Source: the human T2T-CHM13v2.0 reference genome, Homo sapiens. Taken from it: 64,000 nucleotides of DNA. The stretch lies in contig CP068257.2 in the NCBI GenBank assembly GCA_009914755.4, forward strand, positions 39,712,001 to 39,776,000, in the 5' to 3' direction. Shown here piece after piece: positions 14,561-59,258 of this stretch. The notes below the pieces were generated by a model that saw only the letters and a program-made list of their open reading frames with translations, ran no database searches and was not told the origin of the DNA. Each line of letters begins with the position of its first letter. Within the stretch, counting starts at the first letter, position 1. Position numbers and translations under genes: made by a program.

Positions 14561-14975
14561 TAAGGCTGTGTAGATGCAGAAGCTTTATAGATGCTCCACA
14601 GATGGCTGTCTTTGCTCACCAGCTCTCTTAGACCCCTGTAATCTTTCTTTTATTGTATTGCAAATTACATTGCCCACCAAGAATGTCACAATGGGCAGCC
14701 ATGGGCAGTGATTCCCAGCCCTTATGAAATTGTTACGCCTACTCAGTACCCCTCTCCTTCTTTGCTTATTTGTCACTTTAAAATGAAATCAGATTCAGTG
14801 AGCTTTGTGTCTTTAGGGGAATTCTCAGTGAAGTCTGGAAACCCTCCCCCCTCAGGTTTTCCGACCGCTGCTTGGAGTTTCTGGTATGAAGTGCTGGTGT
14901 TCTCCGCCAAGCAGCAGGTGCATCTGTAAATTACTGTGGGATGTTAATGGCTATATACTTTCTTATTCATTACAG

Positions 14976-15099
14976 CTCCAGTCCCCAAAAGGCAAAAATG
15001 TGACCACTGGACTCCCTGCCCATCTGACACCTATGCCTACAGGTTACTCAGCGGAGGTGGCAGAAGCAAGTACGCCAAAATCTGCTTTGAGGATAACCT
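14976..15099 (+). CDS. FAM3B: FAM3B coding exon (aa [42 protein letters not shown]). Phase-1 acceptor after tcattacag, donor CT|GTAAGT.
   Basis: Translation in frame matches FAM3B/PANDER protein from memory. Flanked by a consensus acceptor (polypyrimidine + AG) and a perfect GTAAGT donor. Reading frame is continuous with the next exon. Confidence 0.85.
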
Positions 15100-15350
15100 G
15101 TAAGTACCAGCGTTTAGAAGGAAAATAAAGCGATCCTACTGATTCTTGCCCCTTCCCTGAGGCTGACCAAGCAGCAGTTCTGCCCACAGGAGAGAACCAT
15201 ATGTCGTTGGTCTCAGGCAAAAGGCTGAGAGCATCCGAGTGGAAATGAGAAAGCTCCGCTGTATTCACCAGGGAAGGAGCTGATTGTCTGTAATGGCTGT
15301 ATGTGTCTTGTGTTTAATGGTTTTACGGTTTCGTTTGACTGCAGTTGTAC

Positions 15351-15511
15351 TTAGGATTTAAATCTGAAGTGAGCACAGCCCTGTGGGTTCTACGGGTGAT
15401 GATAGACAAGTACTCTGGGATCTGAGTAGGGATCAGTATTGATGCAGTGAAAGGTGTGTGGGGCACGTGGGGGCATGAGAGCCTCAGGGGTGTTCGGGGC
15501 CAGATGGGCTC
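15351..15511 (+). repeat. Low-copy direct duplication, copy 2. Partner at 13865-14024.
   Basis: See copy 1. The two copies bracket the FAM3B exon at 14976-15099 and the GT-rich tract. Confidence 0.8.
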
Positions 15512-16743
15512 TGAACAAAGTTAGACTACTTTAAAAAGCGAAGTTAGACTACTTTACTTTGAATATGTGGCAAAGTCCTTCAAAGTCATGGGAACATGAA
15601 AACTCAGCCGATAGTTTCTTCGTTTTATTTTATGATCCTCACCTTCCTGGATTAAAGCAGGTGTTGTTTCTGTTTGCAGTCCATACTTTACACTTCTTCA
15701 ATATTTTGGGAAAATCCATATAAGATTGATATTATTTCTTCTTTAAATATTTGGTGTGATTTCCCAACAAAGTCGTCCTGGCCTGGAGGGTTTTGTTTTG
15801 AGGTTTTTAACTGCAAATTTAATTGATGTAATAAGTACAGCACTACTTAAGTTATCTGTTTCTTCTTGAGTGGGCCCCATTTTTATTTTTTTATTATTTA
15901 TTTATTTTGTTTTAGTGCTTCCTTGATTTACAGCATAGCTAAACTCAGCCGAGTCTTTCTTTGTTCAGACTGAAATCAGCCATTTCTCTAAAGAGAGAGT
16001 TCCTTAATGGGATGTGGTATTTAGAAACCAAGATCTAGACACTCATGGGCCCTTGATAGGGTTCCTCCTAAGCACTTTTAGTGGACAGAACCAAGCAATG
16101 CATTTGTTTCTAAATCATGAATTTACATTAGCATTTACAATTCAAATTCAACAGTGCAGGAGTCTTACCCCCTTAAGTTCTTCGATTTTTCATTTTAACT
16201 CTTCCCTTACACTGAGAATCTTGGTTCCTAGTACTATTAACCTTCGCCTTCAAATTACAATACCAAGACTACTAACAATACAACTACTGAGTGAAGTTAA
16301 AAAATGTTGTTTGCAGTTCCTCATAGATTTAAAAATATTTTATTAAGGTTATAAAGAGTCAGATGTCTATATTAATCAAGGCTCTCCAGAGAGACAGAGC
16401 CAATGGCAGTGGGAGGTAAGAAGAGAAAGGAAAGAGTGGATTTATTTATTAGAGAAATTGGCTCATGCAATTATGGAGGCCAAGAGGTCCCACGACAGGC
16501 CATCTGCAAGCTGGAGACCTTGAGATGCTGGTAACATGGCTGAGCCCAAGTACTAAAGCCTCAGAACCAGAGAGGCAGATGGTGTAATTCTCAGTTTGAG
16601 AATCAATAGGAGATGGGAGGTCTGCTGGTATCAGTCTTGGAGTCTAAAGGCGGGGGAGCCTGAAGTTCTCATGTTCAAGGTAGGAGAAGTAGAAGGGTGT
16701 CCCAGTTCCAGCAGAAAGAGAGAGAGAGGCAAAAGGGGACTGA

Positions 16744-17049
<306 letters not shown>

Positions 17050-17504
17050 AAAGTTGTCCTTTTATAAGGAACCCATTCACTCCTGTGATAACAGCATTAA
17101 TCCATTCAGGAGGGCAGAGTCCTCATGGCCTAATCACCTCCTAAATGTCCCACCTCTTAATGCTATTTCCACATGAGTTTGAGAGGTAACAAACATTCAA
17201 CTCATAGCAATGACCAAAGTCATATGAAATAATTACTTTCCCTGTAGTTATTTTACATTGAATTAATTTCCATTTGCTTTCAATGCTAGGTTTGTTTTTC
17301 TTTGGGTTTCATTTAATTTTTGAATATATATTTATTTGGTTCAGAAATCAACATTATGTTTGAATATTACATGTCCCAAAAAAGGAGGCTCAGAGAAATC
17401 TTCCCTGTATTCTCCACCTTTTCTCCCCACCTCTTGTTCCCATCTCCATTAATTTTTTAATTAGTTTTTGATTTATTCTTCCAGTATTTCTTAATGGCAA
17501 AAAA

Positions 17505-17690
17505 TAAGCTATATATATATATAAAATTAATACATACCTATGTATATTTTTATATACAGGTATATATATGCATGTATACATGTGAATATATGTATATGTG
17601 TGTATGAATATGTGTGCATATGTGTATATACACATTATACACGTATACACTCATATGTACACACACATTTATATCCTTTCTTACATAAAA
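17505..17690. repeat. TA/CA-rich low-complexity tract (TATATG / TGTATA / CACACA)
   Basis: Direct inspection. Confidence 0.7.
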
Positions 17691-17739
17691 GGTGGTAAAC
17701 TCTATACACAGTTATGACCTTGGCTTTCTTCACTTAACA

Positions 17740-19560
17740 GTTAATAGAGATTACTCCATATCAGTACATCAGGCTTTTCCTCATTTCTTTTATTGATATG
17801 TGGTATTCCATAGCACGGATGTGTCATAGTTTATTCAACTAGTTCTGCACTGATAGGCATTTCTGATGTTTGATATCTTTTGGTATTACCAGTAATGCTG
17901 CAATAAATAACCTTATGAATATATCATTTTGTAATAAATTATGATAAGGCGAGCAGTTGTGTAACCACCATCCTGGCTAAGAAATAGACTATCACTAGCA
18001 CCCCATAAGCCCTCTGTGTACCCCTTCTGAAATGCAGCTTCTTCTTTCCTTCCTGCCCAATGGTAACCTGGATTTTTTTTGGTGGTGATTTATTTCCTCA
18101 CTTTTCTTGGTAGTTTTACTGCCTAAGCATGCATTGCAAAATACTGTTATTTAATTCAACACTTGTTTAATGTTGTCTGTTTTGGACTTTGTATAAGTGG
18201 AATCATAAACCAAATACTCTTTTGTGTCTGAGATTTATCCTTCACGTTGGATGTAGCTGTTGTTCTTAGATGTTCATTGCTGTATGATACTGCATTGCAT
18301 GAATATGTTACAGTTATCCATTCTATTGTTGAATGACATTTGAGTCATTCCCAGTTTGGGGTTATTATGAACAGTGCTGTTTATGTCTCTTGGTGCACAT
18401 GCACATACATTTTTGTTGAGTGTTTTTTTGAAGAAGGATTCTCACAACTAGCCTCAAATTCAGTGATACTCTAGAAAAATTCCTAAGACCCAATAACAGG
18501 TTACACTTATAGGTAAGTTTTCTTACAGCAAAAGACACAGAGCAAACCCTCCTGCATGTTCTGCTGATGGTGAATTCTTCCAGTTTATGTTTCTCTGAAA
18601 TATCTTTACTTCACCTTCATACCTGAAAAATAGTGTGGTCTGCTGATAGTGAATCTTTCCAGTTTACGTTTCTCTGAAATATCTTTATTTCATCTTTGTT
18701 CCTGAAAAATACTTTTGTAGGCTGTGTTAGCCATTACTTTCTTTCAGCACATTCAAGGTACTATTCCACTGTCTTCTAGGTTCTATATTTTCCTTTTGAG
18801 AAGTCAGCTGACAGTCTTATTGTCGCTGCTGTGAAAGTAACTGCCCATTGCCCTCGTCCCCGTCACCTTAGAGATTCCTTGTCTGGTTTTCAACATTTGT
18901 ACTCCAATGTGTCTTTTGTTGTTTTATCTTCTTTGGAGTTTTTTTGAGTTTCTTAAATAGGTAGGTATTGAAGTCTTTCATCAAATTTAACAAATTCTCT
19001 GCTCTTGTATCTTCTGCCCATTCACTTTCTCCTCTTCTTCTGAGATTCTTAATGAAACATATATTAGACCTTATCACTACTATAGTCTCTAGAGCCTATA
19101 GTCTATTTTGTATTTTCCATTTGTTTACCTCTCTGCTCTTTATCGTGGACAGAGTTGTTTTCCATTCACTAATTCTCTCACCCACTGTACCTAATCTGCT
19201 GTCAAACCCATTCAATCACTACTGATTTTAGGTTACTGTATTATCTTAGTTTTAGAAATTCATTCTGGTTCTTTTTAAAATCAGCATGTCAGTTTTGGTA
19301 CTTTTCAGTTCTGAAATTTTTAATTTTATCAACCATGTTTTTGAATACATTATAGTTAAAGTCTGAGTTGGATAACTCTAGCATTTAGAGTGCCTGTGAG
19401 TCTGTCACTATTATCTACTGTTTTCTGCTGGTTCCATTGTCTCTTGTGTGCGTTGGCCTTTTTCCTCACGTGTCAGGTTTCATTTGATCCTGCACCTGTT
19501 TTTTAAAAAAATTGAGGCATGGGATGATATCTTCTTCTGAGGAATTATCTTTGCTTCTCC
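17740..19560 (-). mobile_element. Old L1 (L1M-like), antisense orientation. Contains an internal ~66-bp tandem duplication at 18555-18690.
   Basis: L1M antisense-like stretches (…gtgtctgagatttatccttcacgttggatgtagctgttgttcttagatgttcattgctgtatgatactgcattgcatgaatatgttacagttatccattc…). Family assignment is approximate. Confidence 0.45.
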
Positions 19561-20438
19561 CAGGGACCTGGAACCTTTAGCAGAACAGGGTGACCTGAAT
19601 AAGTGTTAAAGATTTTCTGGGCCACCTAGTTGACTAAAAACTAGGCTGAAGTTTATACAAGCTCTGATTTTTTTCTGGTTTGCTCTCACTTTCAGGATTC
19701 AACCCTTTGTGACCCCAGGCCAAATAAGATGTGGGAGATTTAACATGGCCCTGACCCTGGCTTCCAACTTCTGTTCCCTTGGCTCACATGGTTGTCAGAA
19801 GGGCTGTTCACTTCCTTACACACCTTTTCTGGAATCAGCAAATTCTCCTTGGTTAAAAGTAGCTTTTAAACGCTGGACTTACCAACCTGAAATTTAGTCT
19901 TCTCCCAGATCTTGGCCTGGGAAATTCTTAACTACCTTATTTGGTCTCTAACGTATACAACCAGATCTTTAACAACAACAGCAACAACAAAACTTGCCTC
20001 ATGTTTTCTGCTTTTCTCCATGAGAAAGTCGGTTTAGATTAGCCGATTTTCTATTATCAGAAATCTCTTTCTGCTTCAAGTTATTATGGAATAGTCTCTA
20101 AACCTGTCAAAAAGCACTAAGCCTAGAAAACTCATAGGGGAGTTTAGGTAAAGGTGTCAAAACAAAATATTAAAGTTCCGTGTTCGCTATTCCAAAGCAT
20201 GGAAAAAGGAGGAAGCCTTCCAAATTATTTTCATAAAGCTAACATGTCATTGATTCTGACACTTGACAATGGGAACATGCACATATACAACATGCACACA
20301 CACAATTTCTGTGATCTTCAGCAATAATTACCATCTCCAGGTAAGTCATTTAGTTTTCCTGATTTTAGGGCACAATCCTCTTGAATTTGGCATTTCATAT
20401 TCTACAATTTAAAGGTTAAAAATTAAGTGACATACTCA

Positions 20439-20738
<300 letters not shown>

Positions 20739-21073
20739 TTAACAATAAAGTGCATCTGTGAAGAGCCTGAGCTAAATAAATGTTAGTTTTTCTTCCCCCT
20801 AGCCATTTGTCTAAATTATAAGATTGAATGCAGTGTCCAGGTCCCCTGAGAGTCCAGGTCCCCTGAGGGACTGAGTCTGTAGACACTGAGAATAGATGTG
20901 TGTGGATGAACATGGGGGTGGCGGTCTCGGGAGCTGCACCAAGGCGAATGCAGACTTTCAAGGAAAAGGTGGGGGACAGCAGATGAGACTGACATTTGGT
21001 CAGGCGAAGACTTCGCGGAGCGGGGAGAGTCGCACGCCTCTTGGTACTTGACTAATGCTTAGCTCCATTTCAG

Positions 21074-21132
21074 ACTTATGGGAGAACAGCTGGGAAATGT
21101 TGCCAGAGGAATAAACATTGCCATTGTCAACT
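21074..21132 (+). CDS. FAM3B: FAM3B coding exon (L-MGEQLGNVARGINIAVVN-y)
   Basis: Acceptor ccatttcag|ACTTATGGG and donor CAACT|GTAAGT. Phase is consistent with the previous exon (ct+a = L) and the next exon (t+at = Y). Confidence 0.8.
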
Positions 21133-21750
21133 GTAAGTTACTAAACATTTTCTTTAAACTTCTCTAAAAGCTCTCTGGTCAGATTTTCAAAGGTACCTTG
21201 GGTTTTCGAGACTTTTGCGCGTGATTTAGTCTAGGTTTGTATTTTAATGCATTTTAAGATTATATACTCAATTATTTTTACAAGTCTCACTTCACAGATT
21301 ATTTGTGGTTCTAACAACAAATAAACAACTGAAAACCAAATATAGACTTTATTTTAAAAAAAGAAAAAAACAGAGGGATAGGCCAAAGTTAGGGTTAACA
21401 CCAGAAGGGCCGCCAAGGGGGTGCAGCCTGTGGTCCTGGACTGAGCCTCTCATTTGCTCCCAGAGTCCCAGTGTCTGCTCAGGGGCTGACACCATAGACC
21501 ATCTCATCCTTCTGTGTGATAAAAGCCACTGCAACCTCGTGGGAAACAAAACTTGGCCTTTCTCTTAGGTCTGGAATAAAGCTCTCTCACAGTTGCCTTT
21601 GAGGGGCCCAGAGGAGAAGGAAAGGGTTTCCCACAACGTCCCTGTGAGTGAGTGGGCCGCATAGCCCCGAGACGTGAGGGCTGTGGAAGTGAAGATAAAA
21701 TGCTCCCAATCTGACAGCCCTGAAGGAGGCTGTAAAGTAGGAAGTGGGCA

Positions 21751-22026
21751 GGCTGAGGGGGCTCTGGTGTTTCTGTGGGATGAGGCGGGTGGGCCTGGCT
21801 GAGGGGGCTCTGGTGTTTCTGTGGGAAGAGGCGGGTGGGCCTGGCTGAGGGGGCTCTGGTGTTTCTGTGGGATGAGGCGGGTGGGCCTGGCTGAGGGGGC
21901 TCTGGTGTTTCTGTGGGATGAGGCGGGTGGGCCTGGCTGAGGGGGCTCTGGTGTTTCTGTGGGATGAGGCGGGTGGGCCTGAGTGAGGGGTCTCTGGTGT
22001 TTCTGTGAGATGAGTTGGGTGGGGGA
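21751..22026 (+). repeat. Minisatellite/VNTR: 46-bp unit GGCTGAGGGGGCTCTGGTGTTTCTGTGGGATGAGGCGGGTGGGCCT, ~6 copies, in the FAM3B intron
   Basis: Exact period 46 from 21751 (21797, 21843, 21889, 21935, 21981). The last copy is diverged. Source of the spurious Pro-rich minus ORF 21504..22094. Confidence 0.9.
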
Positions 22027-22282
22027 GGTATTAGTGTTCCATCAGGTGTAACCCAAAGCAAACTGGAAGAAAGTTCTAGCACAGCTTCCAGCACTTTCCT
22101 TTGACCTGGTTTTGGGGACTCTCCTCAAGGGGCCCGCCCTGTCTCTGCAGGCTGGGTCATTACATCAGTGGTGTTTGCTGGAGATAGACAGGGAAGAAAT
22201 ATTTCCTTCCCCAGGCCCTGGTGCCACAAGTGCGCCCTAGTTCTGTGAACTTTCTTTTAAAATACCATTTCTTTTATTTTCA

Positions 22283-22333
22283 GATGTAACTGGGAATGTG
22301 ACAGCAACACGATGTTTTGATATGTATGAAGGT
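22283..22333 (+). CDS. FAM3B: FAM3B coding exon (y-VTGNVTATRCFDMYEG-d)
   Basis: Acceptor tttattttcag|ATGTAACTGGG and donor GGTG|GTAAGA. Frame is continuous with neighbouring exons. Confidence 0.8.
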
Positions 22334-23611
22334 GGTAAGAAAATTTTTTCTGTTAAAATTCAAATGAATTTTAAACAGAAAATTAAGATTAAAAAGCACA
22401 AAGAAAAATGTCAACCATTTTTATTTTGTCTACTAGAAAAACGCCAGCAGCTCTCCTGAGTAATCTAGAGTGGTCTTATGTAGATCCTCTTAAACTCTAA
22501 TTGAATTCATAGAACATTTGAAGGCATCATCTAGAAATGTCTTTTCTTCTGTTAGTTTTCCTCAGTCTTTCTCTTTTTAGCTCTCATGATATAATAAGAA
22601 AGAGAAAAAGCCTTTTTTTTTAAAAAAAAAAAAAAGCCAAATACATTATATGTAAAATAAAGCCACCAGCATCCAGCCCTAAATATCATCATCCTTTGAA
22701 AGCTGTCACGATTACTCCTGGTGACTCACAGTGCTCTGCTGGGCTCAGGGCAAGCATTCCCGGAACCCACGGGTGCCCAGTCTTTCTCGATGGTCTCTCC
22801 TTTCTAGGCACTGACTCTTGACTGCAGTTGTTGGCCAGGATATACTATCCCCTCTTATTTTTATATATCAATGAGACTTTCAAAAACAAGTTTTTATAAA
22901 GATAGTGAAGACGAAGAATAGAAAACGCCTGCACCCACCCAATAAGAAGGACACAGTTGTACTCTGCAGTTAACCTAAGCAGAACAGTAAATAATGAGCC
23001 GCAGCGGTGAGTAACAGGGTTTGAGGTTTACCTTTATTTTATAAGGCATAGATAAGTCTCTTGGCACAGACTTGCCCACGGTCCACATGTCTCGTATTTG
23101 AGTTCTGTGGGAGTCTCTCTCCTGCACACGTCGGTGTGTTTGCAAGGCCACTCTGCTCAGTGGTCGTGGTGTGGGTGTGGGTGTGGCCCTTTATCAGTGA
23201 CTACAGAGAACACTCCACCTGTGCCACACAGGCTGCTGCTTGTTAAGAGTTTGGTGATCTCATTTCTAAGGAGGGTTTTTTTTTTCTACCAGGGGCTCCA
23301 CTTCTCTTGTTTGTTGGTCAAAAAAGCTCCTTATCTTGACCCCCTTTCACTACTGCCCTGAACACCTATTGCAAGTGTTAGGTTCTTTTCCTTCTACGCT
23401 GTGCCACTCACCTCAGATAGTCCCTATGGTACCCCAGTGAATGTTCACACGTCCAGAGCTAGCACACCATCTGCAGGGTTGAGCAGCGAGCGCTGGGACC
23501 CCCAAGGATTCAGAATGGACACAGAATGCAGGTGCAGGAGGAAGCCCAGCACCCAAGGCAGAGCCTCAGTGAACAGCAAAGACCCTAAAACTGACTTGCA
23601 TCCCCCAATAG

Positions 23612-23699
23612 ATAACTCTGGACCGATGACAAAGTTTATTCAGAGTGCTGCTCCAAAATCCCTGCTCTTCATGGTGACCTATGACGACGGAAGCACAAG
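23612..23699 (+). CDS. FAM3B: FAM3B coding exon ([30 protein letters not shown])
   Basis: Acceptor cccccaatag|ATAACTCTGG and donor ACAAG|GTGAGT. In-frame match to FAM3B. Confidence 0.85.
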
Positions 23700-24072
23700 G
23701 TGAGTGGGTGTAGGTCTGTCACAGCGGTGGGCAAGAGAAGCCAGCTGGGGCAGAGGCTGCCAGGGTCTCTCAGTGACATCCTCTGGGGACAAGCAGAAAG
23801 TCCAGGAGCAAAGTACTTCTCTAAGGAAAAAGAATGAAAGATCATGACAAAATAGATGGCATTTCTTTAAAAAAAAATTAAATCACTAACCACAGAAGTA
23901 CTAGAACCTAAATCAAAGGAGTATTTCAAGGAATCAAGACAAAGCCACTGTTGACCATAATTAGGACAGACAAACTAACCTCCGGACAGAAAGCCTAAAC
24001 CCAGGGTGGCATTAATAGTTACAGCAATGTGAAAGGAAATTGAGATAATTTCCCTATAGAAAGAGGAAAAGA

Positions 24073-24413
<341 letters not shown>

Positions 24414-25190
24414 CTAGAAGTGGATGTAGCTCAGTGCCTCTCAGAGTGTGTCCTACTAAGTAAACCAAACCTGTGTCTTTGCTGCAGAATGTCTAAGAAC
24501 CTTCAAAGTGCTTATTTGTGTGGTGAATTTCCCAGACAGGGCTACTGACCACAGCATTTCCCAAATTTATCAGATTCCTTTTTTCATGGAGCATCTTACC
24601 AAACTGAAGTTCCTTGGCACATACTTTGAAAAATTCTGACTTAACTCACTTAGAACAATCTAAACTTAACTGTTTACTTTCCTGTCTACCCTCCTGTCAC
24701 TTCCTCTAAATCTTAATGTTTGCAGTGGCAGTATTGTTTTACATTTCTTTTTCCTTTTTGATGTGGACTTTTCTGATTATGAAAAGGGGGCAGTTTTGGC
24801 ATTTGCTTTCATCTTTCAGCAACTTCTCTCCACCTTATTTTGTGGTCACTAAACAAGGGGCAGAGCAATAGCCGAAAATTGTATTGGCTGAGTGTGAGCC
24901 TGAGATTGAACCCCAAAGCACAAGGGCTTTCCAGAATTGAGAAGTAGAATTCTGTGCCCCAAACTGGGGCCTAAAATGGCTCTGGATGTCCAATGGTTAA
25001 CTAGAAATGTGACATTCTCAAGAAGCATGTGTGCCTCTTAGCTGCCACTGTGTGTCATGCACTGCAGCAGGAGATGAATGTGTTTAGAAACCTCCATCCA
25101 AGGATGCACAGCGTAACACATCCAGAGCAGAGTTCCTCTCCTCTCCACGTCTCCCTGAGATGCTCACATGCTTTTCCCTTTGTCCTGCAG

Positions 25191-25323
25191 ACTGAATAAC
25201 GATGCCAAGAATGCCATAGAAGCACTTGGAAGTAAAGAAATCAGGAACATGAAATTCAGGTCTAGCTGGGTATTTATTGCAGCAAAAGGCTTGGAACTCC
25301 CTTCCGAAATTCAGAGAGAAAAG
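25191..25323 (+). CDS. FAM3B: FAM3B coding exon ([45 protein letters not shown])
   Basis: Acceptor tttgtcctgcag|ACTGAATAAC and donor GAAAAG|GTGAGT. ORF-track frame 25168..25662 contains this peptide and then reads through into the intron. Confidence 0.85.
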
Positions 25324-28300
25324 GTGAGTGGTTTTAAAATGTCCCTTCCCACCAATGGTGAGTATAGTAAATGCTGTGCCTTGAAAACGTTCCTGGTGGG
25401 TTATAACTCCGTCTCCAAACATAAGAGTTGTGTCAGCTGTTTCCATGAGATCAGCATTAGATCCGGACAGAAGTTTCAAACTTCTCCAATCTCTTTCAAA
25501 GTAGAAAATTCTGAATGGGCTGTTGGTATTGGTTTTTCACCATGCTGCAGCCAACATGGTCTGTCCTGGGCCTCTCCTTCCTTGGGCAGGAGGTTTACCT
25601 CCCCAAGCTCCTGCTATGGGGAAAGTAAGAGAGCTCACCTCTTAGGATGGCTGAGAGCATGAACAGACATGGTGAATGCAAAACACTCAAAACAGGCTGG
25701 ACACCAAATCAACACTGCACAAATCTGGCTTCCATTGCTGCTGCTGCTGCTGTACTAACTGGGCACGTGATTGATTCTAAGTCCCTCCCTTTATGGCCTT
25801 TATTTATCAAAGAGAAGTAAAGAGCAAAAGAATGGCGTTCTCACTTATTAACCACTAAGTCTCCTGTGAAAATTCCAACTGAGGGTTTGCAAAATGTGTG
25901 GGAGTAACAAGCTGAGCATCCGATGACAATCACAACATCCTGGAGAATTTCAGAGGGTTCTGCTCTCCAGGAAAAGATGCTGCAGTAACCGGTGCTGCAG
26001 TAACCGGTGCAGAAGAGGAGGAAATTGTGCTGCATGACCAAGGCGCGAGACTTCCCCACTATACCTTCTGAGGATAAGGGCCTCCTTTCCACTTAGCCAG
26101 AAATTCCCAGAAAGCAGAGATTTCTACATCTCCAGGGTGTGCAATAGGCCGCTTCTGATTTCAGGCTCTGACATTTGGTCCCAGTCTGCCTCCTTGTGCT
26201 GTGGATACGGGTCTGGGAAGAAAGACAAGCAACAGAAGCAGCTCGGCATCTTCTTGTTGCCATGACCACCTGAGGTAGAGGAGAAGGGGGCTGGATAAGG
26301 TGCGACTTCAGCGCAGGCCACACAACCAGACAACTTGGAACTGGTTCCCAGGAAACCCTAGACCTTCTGTGACCCCCTCTAGTCTCATGTTCCGGAGGCC
26401 CGGAAACCATGGTTATTTTAGCATGCATCTACACAAGCATGCTTTCCCCTTGTGACTTCATGTTCCTCTAGAGCCAGGAAGCCAGCCCTGCAGAACGTGT
26501 AGGGAATGTTTCCCGGGGCCCTGGCCTCGACCCCTCCTTGCTTATGACTGTGCCTGGGCACTTGCATGCACAGTGAGCCCTCATGGGTCTGCCCTAACCG
26601 AGAGGCACTCCCTGAGCTCTGATTGGTGGGGCTCCTTGGGCCCCACCACTGCCTGGACCCACACTGAGGGCAAGCTGAACCAGCCACACAATAGTGAAGC
26701 CGGGGCTTACGGTCCTGTGTTAGTTTTGCGAGGGGACGTCGTGTGATCTTAAACAAGTCACGTCACCTCTCTGGGCTCCAGCTTTCCTGCCTCCTCCAGG
26801 GCCAGCAGCTGTGCTGCAGTGTGCACCCCATTCTCCCCGGGATTTCCTCAGGCTGACCCTGGGGAGCGAATACTGGGTCCCCATCTCTCCGATCCCTTGT
26901 GTGATCCATGCCACAGGCTGTCGTCTTGAGAATGTCCAGGCTTTATCCAGCTGGCTGTGTGGTCTTGGAAAGTTATCTAACCCTCTGTGCTCAGAATCAT
27001 CACCTGTGAGAGGTGAATAAAGATAGTTCCTGCCACAGAAGGGCTCCTGAACATGAAAGAAGAGAAACACATGGATCTCAGAGTGGAGTCCTGTAACCCA
27101 GAACAGCTGGGCCTTCCTGGAGCTCCCCGGGTCCTGCCCCACCAGCCCACCCCAAACCCAGATCCCTCCGCACAGCTTCTGCAATCAATGTCTCTCCCAA
27201 CTTGGGTCTCCCCAAAAACCAGTGATGTCCAGGCTGTGCGCAGGACAACTGAACCAGCTTCTCAGAGGGTGGGGCCTGGCCTGGAGATTCTGATGCACGG
27301 GGAAGGGAGCCTCCTTGCGTGGATCTCCAGGAGAAAATGGAGGCCCTGGTTTCACATACACACCCACACTTCCCCTTAACAGCGTCCTCCGACTTCTCTG
27401 CTCCTTCCCCGGCTCTTACCCTGTTTTCCTCCTCCTCTTTCCTTCCTTCCCAGTTCCACAGTCTCTTCAGCATCTCCAGGGGCCTTGTCCCACCTTATCT
27501 AACCACCCCAGCTTATTTAACTAGCAAGGGCGGCGGTGAGCAGGTACTCCTGGCAGCCCGGGCGTTGTGCCACACAGGGACCCCCCCATGCACACGAGCG
27601 TCTGTGGTTATTATTACTACCAATGGTGCGGTTCTCCAGCTGATTTATGAGAGTGTCCAGACTGTACCAGAAAGGCTGGCATGTGAGGCTGAAATCCTTT
27701 TTAACTCAAATGTTAACATCTCATCAAACAGGTTCTTCATTAATGTTTAAGTCGTAGAAAACAAAAACCTCATTGGAATTGCACAGAGGAAGTTGTAGTC
27801 CTTCCTTATGATTTCCTTCATATGAAAGAGTTTCTGGAGCAGGAGAAATCAAGAAAAAGACTGGACGTCAAAGCCAGGGCTGAGTTTAGAGAATTGGAAT
27901 GTGTTTGGAAATGGTGGCTCCAAGTGAATTTCAGGAAAATGCCTGTTTTGCCCACCTGTGTCAGCTAAAAGTTATCCAAGTTACTACAGGAGTATAAAGA
28001 CGAGACCTAAACACAGCAAGCAGTCAGTGCTGGAGAGTTACTAGAGGTTCTGTGGTTTGGGGGCGCTAAAGGATGTTTGCTCAAATGTTGGTGAGGTCTG
28101 GACTGGTAGCCAGGGCTTCAAGACAGGTCTTACCGAGACCTTGAGAGAAGTGCCACTGGAGGAATCATTTGTGTCTGTGTTACTTTGGCTATTCAGACTT
28201 GCAGGTGGTGTATTTCCCTAAGGGTGGTGTACCCATGTTGGGAGGGCCTCCTGAGTCCTCAGGGGTCTCCCCAGCCCCATGTTCACTCCCACTCCACCTG

Positions 28301-29014
28301 CTATTCCAGGAGTCAGCTTTCTAGGCACAGCGCCTGGGCCACTCTCATGCAGAGCCTTTAATGACCCCACTACCTGCTGAATTGAATTTTAAAGTATAAG
28401 GAACTTCAAAGATTATTCCATCCAACCTCTTGGTTTTATAGGAGGAAGGAAACTGAGAAATAAATAAGGACAGGAGTCTTGGAAGTGAGGGTAACCTGGT
28501 TCAGATCTGGACTTGGCCACCCCGACTGCATGACCTGAGTTTGGCACTTCATAGGCCTGCGCCTCTTCTGCACCCTGAACTGTGGGTAGCGGAGCCTGCC
28601 TTGCTCCCTGTGTGTGTGACAAGCATGATGCAGCAGGAGGAGCCATCATTCTCATCGCCTCCAGCATGGTCTGAGTCTTGTCTCTGGTGATCCTAACTGG
28701 AGCACAGACCCTTGTCTTCAGCCCCACTCAGCCCCTCCCATGCTTTGTGTGCTCAACACTCCAGCAAAGCCTCATGAGTGGCTGCTCTTACCATACCCTG
28801 CAGCGCTTTGCCACTATGCTGGCTCTGTTCAGGTCTCGTCTTTATATTCCTGCTGTAACTTTCCACATGTGGACCTCTGCACATGCCTCCCTCCATGCAG
28901 GGGGTGCCTTCACAAAGCCTTAAAGATCCACCTCAAGGCTGTTTCTTCTGAGAAGCCTCTCTGGCCCTGCCACTGCTGCCCGTAATGCCCATGGCATTTT
29001 GTACCTTCCCTGAG

Positions 29015-29082
29015 AAAGAAAGGGAAGGGAATGGAAGGAAGGAAAAAGGGAAGGGAGGGGAGGGGAGGGAAGGGAAGGTGCA
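29015..29082. repeat. GA-rich simple repeat (GGAA/GGGA)n
   Basis: gaaagaaagggaagggaatggaaggaaggaaaaagggaagggaggggaggggagggaagggaagg. Confidence 0.8.
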
Positions 29083-31468
<2,386 letters not shown>

Positions 31469-53180: not shown

Positions 53181-53446
53181 AGTAGCAAAGGAACATTGAG
53201 ACTCTACTGGGAATGTGGAGTCCACTGCCCCCCGTTCCCCAAGCCCGGGCCGGTAGAAATCCACTTGTGCTCTGTGGCTGCCAAGAGCCCCTCCTGCAGA
53301 CAGGGGCCCTGCACTGGACCCCTGGTCTCTGCATCTGTGTGTAGGGGGTAGGTTGTAGGGTGGGGTGAGGAGGGGTTGGCAAAAGTGCCAACTCAGGGAG
53401 GACTTCTGGTGACCTGTGGGCCGCTCTCCCTCTTGTGTCTTTGCAG

Positions 53447-53517
53447 AGCTTGTCAGGAAGATCGGAGGTGCCAAGTAGCAGAGAAAGCATCCCCCAGCTC
53501 TGACAGGGAGACAGCAC
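53447..53517 (+). other. MX2: MX2 exon 2, 5'UTR portion (acceptor ctcttgtgtctttgcag|AGCTTGTCAGG)
   Basis: Strong polypyrimidine tract plus AG immediately upstream. An in-frame stop (TAG at 53476) lies upstream of the ATG in the same frame. Confidence 0.7.
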
Positions 53518-53766
53518 ATGTCTAAGGCCCACAAGCCTTGGCCCTACCGGAGGAGAAGTCAATTTTCTTCTCGAAAATACCTGAAAAAAGAAATGAATTC
53601 CTTCCAGCAACAGCCACCGCCATTCGGCACAGTGCCACCACAAATGATGTTTCCTCCAAACTGGCAGGGGGCAGAGAAGGACGCTGCTTTCCTCGCCAAG
53701 GACTTCAACTTTCTCACTTTGAACAATCAGCCACCACCAGGAAACAGGAGCCAACCAAGGGCAATG
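53518..53766 (+). CDS. MX2: MX2 first coding exon: complete N-terminal domain (aa 1-83, MSKAHKPWPYRRRSQFSSRKYLKKEMNSF...NRSQPRAM), donor AATG|GTAAGC
   Basis: Translation is identical to the human MX2/MxB N-terminus as I recall it, including the RRR motif at codons 11-13 (53548-53556) and the internal Met26 (53593-53595). 83 codons, phase 0. Confidence 0.9.
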
Positions 53767-54399
53767 GTAAGCCCGGTGGAGGGACGTTCAGAAAGGGTGC
53801 ATTCTGGCTGCCGGTGCAGAGGGCTGTCATGTAAGCCCACCACAATAATAGAACCAGCCAGTCTGCTCCTCCGGCACAGCTGATGTCTCCAGCTCTCCTG
53901 GTCATGCCCAACAAGTACCAGGAACATACATAGACTCTCCTGCAGCAACGGGCTGCTGCGACGTGGGTCTGGGGCTTCTGTGTGCGGGGGTCCCCTTCCT
54001 GGAGCTTTTCTTTCAGCCTCCCCTGCAGCCATCACATTGCCAGCCCACCCACTTGCCACCCTCCCCAGCTCTGCAGCTCCCCAACCCAGAACCTCTCCTC
54101 CCTCTGGCTGGAGTCTCTGCCTCTTGGAACTTCTTCCTGGCTCAGTGCTCCCAGCCCCTCCCCAGGAGGCACACCCTGCACACCTGCAGCCAAATCCTCC
54201 CAGCATCTGCCCCTGTGAGGCCTCAATAGGAACAGAACAGAAGGGCCCCTGAAAGCAGCAGCACCCCTCCATCCACCTTCTCACCTCCTGTCTGCAACCC
54301 AACCTAACATCATAGCCGCACAAACTCTGCCACACATCTCCATGACACCAGGGACCCTATCAGGGGTCAAGGCAGTGGCATCTGTTCTGCCTTCTCCAG

Positions 54400-54592
54400 G
54401 GGCCCGAGAACAACCTGTACAGCCAGTACGAGCAGAAGGTGCGCCCCTGCATTGACCTCATCGACTCCCTGCGGGCTCTGGGTGTGGAGCAGGACCTGGC
54501 CCTGCCAGCCATCGCCGTCATCGGGGACCAGAGCTCGGGCAAGAGCTCTGTGCTGGAGGCACTGTCAGGAGTCGCGCTTCCCAGAGGCAGCG
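54400..54592 (+). CDS. MX2: MX2 coding exon 3 ([65 protein letters not shown]). Contains the P-loop GDQSSGKS at 54523-54546.
   Basis: Acceptor ccttctccag|GGGCCCGAG and donor CAGCG|GTAAGT. Dynamin-family G1 motif is present and the frame is continuous with exons 2 and 4. Confidence 0.9.
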
Positions 54593-56710: not shown

Positions 56711-56845
56711 GAATCGTAACCAGGTGTCCGCTGGTGCTGAAACTGAAAAAGCAGCCCTGTGAGGCATGGGCCGGAAGGATCAGCTACCGGAACACCGAGC
56801 TAGAGCTTCAGGACCCTGGCCAGGTGGAGAAAGAGATACACAAAG
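56711..56845 (+). CDS. MX2: MX2 coding exon 4 ([46 protein letters not shown])
   Basis: Acceptor tctcgctcag|GAATCGTAACC and donor CAAAG|GTGGGC. Matches the MX2 GTPase domain and contains the switch-I Thr (IVTRCP). Confidence 0.85.
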
Positions 56846-59103: not shown

Positions 59104-59258
59104 CCCAGAACGTCATGGCCGGGAATGGCCGGGGCATCAGCCATGAGCTCATCAGCCTGGAGATCACCTCCCCTGAGGTTCCAGACCTGACCATCATTGA
59201 CCTTCCCGGCATCACCAGGGTGGCTGTGGACAACCAGCCCCGAGACATCGGACTGCAG
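59104..59258 (+). CDS. MX2: MX2 coding exon 5 ([52 protein letters not shown]). G3 motif DLPG at 59199-59210.
   Basis: Acceptor ctggcctccatag|CCCAGAACG and donor CTGCAG|GTGAGC. In-frame continuation. The next MX2 exon (IKALIKKYIQ...) is not in the window. Confidence 0.85.

What the first reader, a model, noticed from the sequence alone, without database searches (positions are those of the whole stretch)
53518..53766. Complete MX2 N-terminal domain in one exon: RRR11-13 motif and internal Met26
This exon encodes residues 1-83 of MX2. It includes the basic N-terminal stretch with the triple-arginine motif (codons 11-13 at 53548-53556; CGG AGG AGA). Established literature identifies this motif as the determinant of MxB nuclear-envelope targeting and lentiviral capsid restriction. 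An in-frame ATG at codon 26 (53593-53595) is the known alternative initiation site that yields the short, non-antiviral isoform. The whole functional determinant is a separate exon, set off from the GTPase exons by a phase-0 boundary. That is a plausible exon-shuffling origin of the MX2-specific N-terminus relative to MX1.
Basis: partly seen in the sequence, partly recalled or inferred. Interest (0 to 1): 0.5.

Follow-up and report, generated by a model that had tools for sequence, protein, structure and literature searches.

The report
Human MX2 first coding exon

Summary
Window 53518-53766 (+) translates without a stop into 83 residues that match my recalled human MX2 1-83 at 100%. RRR11-13 lies at 53548-53556 and Met26 at 53593-53595. 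The exon ends at a phase-0 donor (ATG|gtaagc). The next three MX2 exons follow in the window, and FAM3B lies upstream.

The full exon is 53447-53766 and includes 71 nt of 5'UTR.

The interpretation needs three corrections.
- RRR11-13 is essential for capsid binding and HIV-1 restriction, but the RRR-to-AAA mutant still reaches the nuclear envelope.
- The literature's N-terminal domain is residues 1-91, so residues 84-91 come from the next exon.
- Exon shuffling is not supported. The same phase-0 intron is present in manatee Mx2, mouse Mx2, hedgehog Mx1 and a bird Mx. A profile search of 1.84 billion proteins found the module only in eutherian MX2.

It is the human-specific Met that confers HSV-1 restriction.

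Across 12 eutherian sequences Met26 is invariant, while RRR is present only in human and chimpanzee.

All of this is already known biology, so interest is low.

The parts
53447..53766 (+). Complete MX2 exon that contains the start codon (320 nt). It runs from acceptor tttgcag|AGC to donor ATG|gtaagc.
   Evidence: Splice-site context. Junction solved exactly.
53447..53517 (+). 5'UTR part of the exon (71 nt). It has no ATG, and an in-frame TAG lies 14 codons upstream of Met1.
53518..53766 (+). Coding sequence for MX2 residues 1-83, the MX2-specific N-terminal region.
53518..53520 (+). Met1 in a weak initiation context (cacATGt: C at -3, T at +4).
   Evidence: Leaky scanning is reported in PMC4442396.
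53536..53556 (+). Codons 7-13 (PWPYRRR), the segment modelled at the HIV-1 capsid tri-hexamer interface.
   Evidence: Coordinates derived. Structural role from bioRxiv 10.64898/2026.05.07.723526 and PDB 30OF.
53548..53556 (+). Triple-arginine motif R11 R12 R13 (CGG AGG AGA).
   Evidence: PMC4442396.
53557..53571 (+). Stretch containing Ser14, Ser17 and Ser18, the repressive phosphorylation sites.
   Evidence: Coordinates. Function from the abstract of PMC9426416.
53593..53595 (+). Met26, the internal start of the short isoform. Its context is gaaATGa (G at -3). It is the next ATG after Met1 in any frame.
   Evidence: It is invariant in 12 eutherian MX2 N-termini. PMC6264145.
53599..53601 (+). 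Ser28. The phosphomimetic S28D is hypermorphic.
   Evidence: PMC9426416. PDB 30of_S carries S28D.
53764..53766 (+). Codon 83 (ATG, Met), the last codon of the exon and positions -3 to -1 of the splice donor. It is the human-specific determinant of HSV-1 restriction. The M83T polymorphism changes base 53765.
   Evidence: PMC10312577.
53767..54399 (+). Phase-0 intron of 633 nt. Reading through it gives a 121-aa ORF identical to P0001.
54400..54592 (+). Second coding exon, from residue 84 to the first base of codon 148. It encodes the BSE helix and the P-loop.
   Evidence: PMC4687636.
56711..56845 (+). Third coding exon of MX2 (G domain).
59104..59258 (+). Fourth coding exon of MX2 (G domain).
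38521..38666 (+). Candidate MX2 promoter and non-coding exon 1. It has two identical ISRE-like elements (AGTTTCATTTCT at 38521-38532 and 38548-38559), a TATA-like ATAAAAG at 38610-38616, and a donor gcagcg|gtaaga after 38666. This is inferred, not verified with transcripts.

Best explanation
The interval is the coding part of the first coding exon of human MX2 (MxB), an interferon-induced dynamin-like GTPase.

It encodes residues 1-83, the N-terminal extension specific to MX2.
[quoted passage not shown] The three arginines make the essential contacts and also bind FG-nucleoporins and TNPO1.
- Met1 sits in a weak initiation context. Some ribosomes scan past it to Met26, the next ATG in any frame. 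This produces a short cytoplasmic isoform that lacks the capsid-binding segment.

The exon is spliced in phase 0 to the conserved BSE/GTPase exon.

That intron is ancestral to amniote Mx genes. The separate N-terminal exon is therefore inherited gene architecture, in which the first coding exon has a lineage-specific sequence. It is not a module shuffled in from another gene.
For: Shown here:
- Exact translation, with 100% match to my recalled human MX2.
- Identity to PDB 30of_S over residues 1-45 apart from S28D.
- The next exon matches the MxB crystal structure 4WHJ at E 3.3e-102. Residue 84 aligns to chain position 15, which fits a construct that starts at residue 84.
- Canonical AG and GT splice sites and a phase-0 junction.
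- FAM3B exons lie upstream on the same strand, matching the published synteny (PMC4687636).
- Met1 context is cacATGt and Met26 context is gaaATGa. No other ATG lies between them, and all five ATGs in the exon are in frame.
- Met26 is invariant in 12 eutherian N-termini. RRR is present only in human and chimpanzee, and Met83 only in human.
- The same intron position and phase occur in manatee Mx2, mouse Mx2, hedgehog Mx1 and plover Mx.
- A profile of the module finds only eutherian MX2 among 1.84 billion proteins.

From the literature:
- RRR is essential, and nuclear-envelope localisation is unaffected by its mutation (PMC4442396).
- RRR-dependent binding to nucleoporins and TNPO1, and the Met26 isoforms (PMC6264145).
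- M83 and HSV-1 restriction (PMC10312577).
Against: Nothing contradicts the identification. The limits are these:
- No transcript data were available, so the 5' end of the exon (53447) and the upstream non-coding exon are inferred from splice-site sequence only.
- The full-length human reference used was recalled from memory. It is corroborated by the PDB and chimpanzee hits.
- Mouse Mx2 sits at the ancestral MxB position (Mitchell et al.), so it is a weaker witness for MX1 architecture. Hedgehog Mx1 and the bird gene cover that gap.
- I could not read human MX1 genomic DNA directly.
- The N-terminal exons of MX2 and MX1 share no detectable sequence similarity. In-situ divergence and replacement of the first coding exon therefore cannot be told apart.
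Confidence: 0.97

Rival explanations
1. Exon-shuffling origin. The MX2 N-terminal module was captured as a mobile exon from another gene and inserted ahead of an MX1-like GTPase gene, creating a new phase-0 intron.
For: The module is a discrete exon with a phase-0 3' boundary. It has no detectable similarity to MX1, bird, salamander or hagfish N-terminal exons. It works autonomously when grafted onto MX1, Fv1 or leucine zippers (PMC4442396; PMC6264145).
Against: The intron is not new. The identical position and phase are found in hedgehog Mx1, mouse Mx2 (MxA-like) and plover Mx, so it predates the eutherian MX1/MX2 duplication.

No donor gene exists among 1.84 billion protein representatives. 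Of the 11 hits, two were confirmed by name as eutherian Mx2 (pig and rabbit). One was a repetitive protein judged spurious. The rest are unnamed MX2-like N-terminal fragments, most of them genomic read-through ORFs.

The exon carries the 5'UTR and the start codon, so it is not an internal symmetric exon of the kind classical shuffling moves.
Confidence: 0.03
2. First-exon replacement or de novo recruitment. After the eutherian duplication, MX2 kept the ancestral intron but gained a new first coding exon from previously non-coding local sequence or from an alternative promoter or exon. Under this reading the MX2 N-terminus is not a diverged copy of the ancestral N-terminal exon.
For: There is no significant similarity between MX2 1-83 and any non-MX2 Mx N-terminus. 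Shuffle tests gave z <= 0.1 for six of seven comparisons. Bullfrog reached 33/1000, which is not significant after seven tests. The profile search detected the module only in eutherian MX2.
Against: The region is proline-rich and only residues 7-14 could be modelled even when bound to capsid, so it looks disordered. It also evolves quickly: within eutherians, identity to human falls to 36-59%. Loss of detectable similarity by ordinary divergence is therefore expected, and absence of similarity does not discriminate. Bird, frog and salamander Mx genes also have long, basic N-terminal exons of similar size.
Confidence: 0.2
3. Chance ORF or processed pseudogene rather than the functional MX2 exon.
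For: None beyond the formal possibility.
Against: Introns are present with canonical splice sites. Four consecutive MX2 exons lie in the correct order and phase. FAM3B lies upstream in the expected synteny. An ISRE pair lies about 15 kb upstream. Identity to my recalled human MX2 sequence is 100%.
Confidence: 0.005

Closest known systems
Human MX2/MxB first coding exon. Mitchell et al. number the next exon 'MxB exon 3', so this is exon 2.
   Same: The protein sequence over residues 1-83 is identical, including RRR11-13, Met26, Gly37 and the human-specific Met83. The downstream exons and the FAM3B synteny also match.
   Different: Nothing detectable. The window carries the common M83 allele, not T83.
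Other eutherian MX2 N-terminal exons (chimpanzee, manatee, pig, rabbit, whale, pangolin)
   Same: They are homologous over the whole exon (E 1e-4 to 1e-30). They share the exon end and phase, the invariant Met26, and a conserved PPNWQ...KDFNxLTLN core.
   Different: RRR is replaced outside human and chimpanzee: QKQ in manatee and rabbit, QRH in pig, and QKH, RRH and ERH in three unnamed sequences. Residue 83 is Lys in 10 of the 11 non-human sequences and Gln in one.
MX1/MxA-type first coding exon (hedgehog Mx1, mouse Mx2) and bird Mx first coding exon
   Same: The gene architecture is the same. A separate first coding exon encodes a variable N-terminus and ends in phase 0 exactly three codons before the N-N-L (or x-x-L) of the conserved [19 protein letters not shown] helix.
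   Different: There is no detectable sequence similarity to MX2 1-83. The MX1-type exons are shorter (28-35 codons; the bird exon has 71). They have no RRR capsid-binding segment, and none of the aligned first exons shows an internal Met like Met26.

Membership tests
Human MX2 (MxB) gene, first coding exon | Translation equals MX2 residues 1-83 | tested here: met
   One search gives the translation. It matches recalled human MX2 at 100%. It is identical to PDB 30of_S over residues 1-45 apart from S28D. It is 99% identical to chimpanzee MX2 P0002, differing only at residue 83.
Human MX2 (MxB) gene, first coding exon | Followed by exons encoding the MX2 BSE and GTPase domain | tested here: met
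   Exons at 54400-54592, 56711-56845 and 59104-59258. They match 4WHJ MxB at E 3.3e-102.
Human MX2 (MxB) gene, first coding exon | Canonical splice acceptor and donor, phase-0 3' junction | tested here: met
   tttgcag|AGC at 53446/53447 and ATG|gtaagc at 53766/53767. The junction reproduces ...PRAM|GPENNL exactly.
Human MX2 (MxB) gene, first coding exon | Genomic context Fam3B(+);MxB(+) | tested here: met
   Six FAM3B exon matches at 14969-33805 on the + strand (the FAM3B query was recalled from memory). Published synteny in PMC4687636.
Human MX2 (MxB) gene, first coding exon | Interferon-responsive promoter (ISRE) | tested here: inconclusive
   No strict GAAANNGAAAST site was found upstream. 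Two identical AGTTTCATTTCT elements 27 bp apart at 38521-38559, a TATA-like box and a GT donor form a plausible promoter and exon 1. This is not verified by transcripts or binding data.
Human MX2 (MxB) gene, first coding exon | Dual initiation at Met1 and Met26, giving 78 and 76 kDa isoforms | not testable with these tools
   The sequence is compatible: weak Met1 context, better Met26 context and no intervening ATG. The isoforms themselves are known only from the literature (PMC6264145).
Module acquired by exon shuffling | Homologous module present in an unrelated gene (a donor) | tested here: not met
   The profile search of 1.84 billion representatives returned 11 hits. Pig and rabbit Mx2 were confirmed by name, one hit was a repetitive protein judged spurious, and the rest are unnamed MX2-like N-terminal fragments, mostly genomic read-through ORFs.
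Module acquired by exon shuffling | Intron bounding the module is absent from the paralogue or outgroup lacking the module | tested here: not met
   An intron at the same position and phase is present in hedgehog Mx1, mouse Mx2 (MxA-like) and plover Mx. [quoted passage not shown]
Module acquired by exon shuffling | Internal exon flanked by introns of the same phase | tested here: not met
   The exon contains the 5'UTR and the start codon, with an in-frame stop upstream of Met1. It has no coding 5' phase.

The most novel reading that the evidence does not exclude
Codon 83 occupies positions -3 to -1 of the splice donor (ATG|gtaagc). Two changes both alter donor position -2:
- the human-lineage K83M change (AAG to ATG);
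- the common M83T polymorphism (ATG to ACG, base 53765, about 18% in African-ancestry populations per PMC10312577).

These alleles might therefore differ in splicing efficiency or intron retention. Read-through gives a truncated 121-aa product that still carries the whole capsid-binding N-terminus. That would be an effect on top of the amino-acid effect on HSV-1 restriction, which was measured only with cDNA constructs. The words 'splice' and 'exon' do not occur in that paper.
Probability: 0.08. Interest if true: 0.35.

Novelty: already known. Interest (0 to 1): 0.08.

Why it matters
MX2 is a major interferon-induced restriction factor for HIV-1 and herpesviruses, and this exon carries nearly all of its specificity determinants. 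All of that is already established experimentally and structurally.

What this check adds is modest:
- It corrects the claim about RRR and nuclear-envelope targeting.
- It shows directly that the intron after the N-terminal exon is shared with MX1-type and avian Mx genes, which removes the exon-shuffling argument.
- It notes that the human-specific HSV-1 determinant, Met83, sits on the splice donor.

Tried and rejected
- **Strict ISRE scans** (GAAANNGAAAST across the whole window, then GAAANNGAAACT with up to one mismatch over 38-54 kb) found nothing useful upstream of the exon. The candidate promoter was found only after placing the window on the genome through the gnomAD coordinate in PMC10312577 and reading around 38.5 kb.
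- **Apparent frog similarity.** Bullfrog Mx (RATRRSQ..., PKDFCF) looked like MX2 (YRRRSQ..., AKDFNF). The shuffle test gave 33/1000, which is not significant after seven comparisons, and the profile search did not recover it. I rejected it as evidence of homology.
- **P0129**, a 558-aa repetitive protein that hit the profile at E 3e-6 through six repeated stretches. I judged it a repeat-summed spurious match.
- **Gene look-ups** for orangutan MX1 (P0011) and lemming Mx1 (P0017) returned nothing. I used hedgehog Mx1 and mouse Mx2 instead, so human MX1 genomic DNA could not be read directly.
- **The first word-indexed protein search** with the 83-aa query gave only two hits, because that database is mostly microbial and metagenomic.
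- **Not run:** a structure prediction of the N-terminus, because a disordered region would give an uninformative model.

Full report
**Observation.** Window 53518-53766 on the + strand translates without a stop into 83 residues, MSKAHKPWPYRRRSQFSSRKYLKKEMNSFQQQPPPFGTVPPQMMFPPNWQGAEKDAAFLAKDFNFLTLNNQPPPGNRSQPRAM.
- CGG AGG AGA for R11-R13 at 53548-53556;
- ATG for Met26 at 53593-53595;
- the last codon, ATG (Met83), at 53764-53766, followed directly by gtaagc, so the junction is phase 0.

The exon itself is larger than the stated interval. A polypyrimidine tract and acceptor (ctcttgtgtctttgcag|AGC) place its start at 53447. That gives 71 nt of 5'UTR, with an in-frame TAG 14 codons before Met1 and no upstream ATG.

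**Identity.**
- A tblastn with human MX2 recalled from memory gives 100% identity over residues 1-83. It also finds the next coding exons in order on the same strand. I refined these from the splice sites to 54400-54592, 56711-56845 and 59104-59258.
- Independent anchors agree. PDB chain 30of_S, named 'Interferon-induced GTP-binding protein Mx2,GST', is identical over residues 1-45 apart from an S28D difference, which its preprint describes as an engineered phosphomimetic. The downstream exons match the MxB crystal structure 4WHJ at E 3.3e-102. In that alignment residue 84 falls at chain position 15, which fits a construct that starts at the exon boundary.
- A chimpanzee MX2 fragment (P0002) differs in this exon only at residue 83, Lys instead of Met.
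- P0001, a 121-aa ORF called in metagenomic assemblies, is the exon read through into the intron and is identical to the window. I take it to be human DNA contamination.
- FAM3B exons lie upstream at 14969-33805 on the same strand (the query was recalled from memory). This matches the published ancestral locus order Bace2;Fam3B;MxB;MxA;Tmprss2 (PMC4687636).
- Bayer et al. give the M83T variant as gnomAD 21-41377154-T-C. That base is window position 53765, so by inference the window is about chr21:41,323,390-41,387,389 in GRCh38.

**How the exon works (from the literature, checked against the sequence).**
- *The arginine motif.* Goujon et al. scanned residues 1-91 with triple alanines, and only RRR11-13A lost anti-HIV-1 activity. 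RRR-to-KKK was also inactive. The RRR11-13A protein still accumulated at the nuclear envelope (PMC4442396).
- *Partners of the motif.* Dicks et al. showed that the motif is needed for binding FG-nucleoporins and TNPO1 (PMC6264145).
- *Isoforms.* Dicks et al. also restate that the Met26 isoform (76 kDa) is cytoplasmic and not antiviral, while the 78 kDa form is at the nuclear envelope.
- *Structure.* A 2026 preprint defines residues 1-45 as the minimal active region. [quoted passage not shown]
- *Phosphorylation.* Phosphorylation of S14, S17 and S18 represses activity, and S28D is hypermorphic (PMC9426416).
- *Leaky scanning.* The sequence fits this mechanism. Met1 has C at -3 and T at +4. Met26 has G at -3 and is the next ATG in any frame. 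All five ATGs in the exon are in frame. Goujon et al. explicitly note leaky scanning and the effect of adding a Kozak sequence.

Codon 83 is the single determinant of HSV-1 restriction by human MxB. Met is human-specific, most primates have Lys, and the M83T allele loses the activity (PMC10312577). In my alignment of 12 eutherian MX2 N-termini, residue 83 is Lys in 10, Gln in one, and Met only in human. Met26 is one of only two invariant columns. RRR is present only in human and chimpanzee. This agrees with Goujon's finding that dog MX2 has RRH and gains activity with H13R.

**Test of the exon-shuffling idea.** I fetched genomic loci for four other Mx genes and solved the first coding junction in each.

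| Gene | Junction |
|---|---|
| Human MX2 | …PRAM\|GPENNLYSQ |
| Manatee Mx2 | …PRAK\|WTESILCSQ |
| Mouse Mx2 (an MxA-like gene per Mitchell et al.) | …EKDQ\|ESVNNLCSQ |
| Hedgehog Mx1 | …SWEA\|MAQGCLSSQ |
| Plover Mx | …QQHK\|AAEHTLYNQ |

- All five junctions are phase 0 and fall exactly five residues before the conserved Leu of the first BSE helix. The intron therefore predates the eutherian MX1/MX2 duplication.
- Mitchell et al. independently treat the second coding exons of human MxA and MxB as corresponding units that undergo gene conversion.
- A profile of the MX2 N-terminus, searched against 1.84 billion representative proteins, returned 11 hits. Two were confirmed by name as pig and rabbit Mx2. 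One was a repetitive protein that I judged spurious. The rest are unnamed MX2-like N-terminal fragments, most of them ORFs that continue past the exon end with a Val (GT…) codon. No donor gene exists.
- Smith-Waterman scores with shuffling show no similarity between MX2 1-83 and the N-terminal exons of MX1, mouse Mx2, hedgehog Mx1, plover, salamander or hagfish Mx. Bullfrog gave 33/1000, which is not significant after seven tests.
- The architecture is therefore ancestral. The MX2-type sequence is detectable only in eutherian MX2. Whether it arose by rapid divergence of a fast-evolving (probably disordered) exon or by replacement of the first exon cannot be decided from these data.

**Other corrections.** The literature's N-terminal domain is residues 1-91. 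'Complete' is therefore true of the MX2-specific and minimal functional parts, but not of the operational domain. Residues 84-91 (GPENNLYS) lie in the next exon and are shared with MX1. Mitchell et al. found positive selection concentrated in the MxB N-terminal tail, but not at RRR or at residue 37.

**Verdict.** The functional annotation is largely right, with one error of attribution: RRR is not the nuclear-envelope targeting determinant. The evolutionary speculation is not supported. Everything here is established biology of a well-characterised human gene, so novelty is 'already known' and interest is low. The only untested angle I can offer is that the functionally important codon 83 variants also change position -2 of the splice donor.

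Noticed in passing
window 38521-38668: Two identical ISRE-like elements (AGTTTCATTTCT, reverse complement AGAAATGAAACT) lie 27 bp apart and occur nowhere else in the window. They are followed by a TATA-like ATAAAAG at 38610-38616 and a donor gcagcg|gtaaga after 38666. This is probably the interferon-responsive MX2 promoter and non-coding exon 1, about 14.8 kb upstream of the coding exon.
   Followed up: partly
window 14969-33805 (+): Six tblastn matches to FAM3B (query recalled from memory), at 93-100% identity and in order on the + strand. The 3' part of FAM3B therefore occupies the first half of the window, as expected from the Fam3B;MxB synteny.
   Followed up: partly
window 53764-53772: The human-specific Met83 codon forms positions -3 to -1 of the 5' splice site (ATG|gtaagc). 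The ancestral AAG would match the donor consensus better at position -2, and the M83T allele (ACG) also changes that base. A possible splicing effect has not been examined.
   Followed up: no
window 53518-53883: Reading through the donor gives a 121-aa ORF that is present verbatim in metagenome-derived protein collections (P0001). Similar exon-plus-intron ORFs from other mammals (P0122-P0125, P0127, P0128) are also catalogued there. I take this to be host DNA contamination that prokaryotic gene callers annotate as proteins.
   Followed up: partly
window 53447-53766: All five ATG triplets in the 320-nt exon are in the MX2 reading frame (codons 1, 26, 43, 44, 83). There are no out-of-frame ATGs, which would favour productive leaky scanning.
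   Followed up: no
window 30000-34000: An AT-rich block (GC about 0.35) with strong positive AT skew lies between FAM3B exons. It is probably a LINE-type repeat and was not examined.
   Followed up: no
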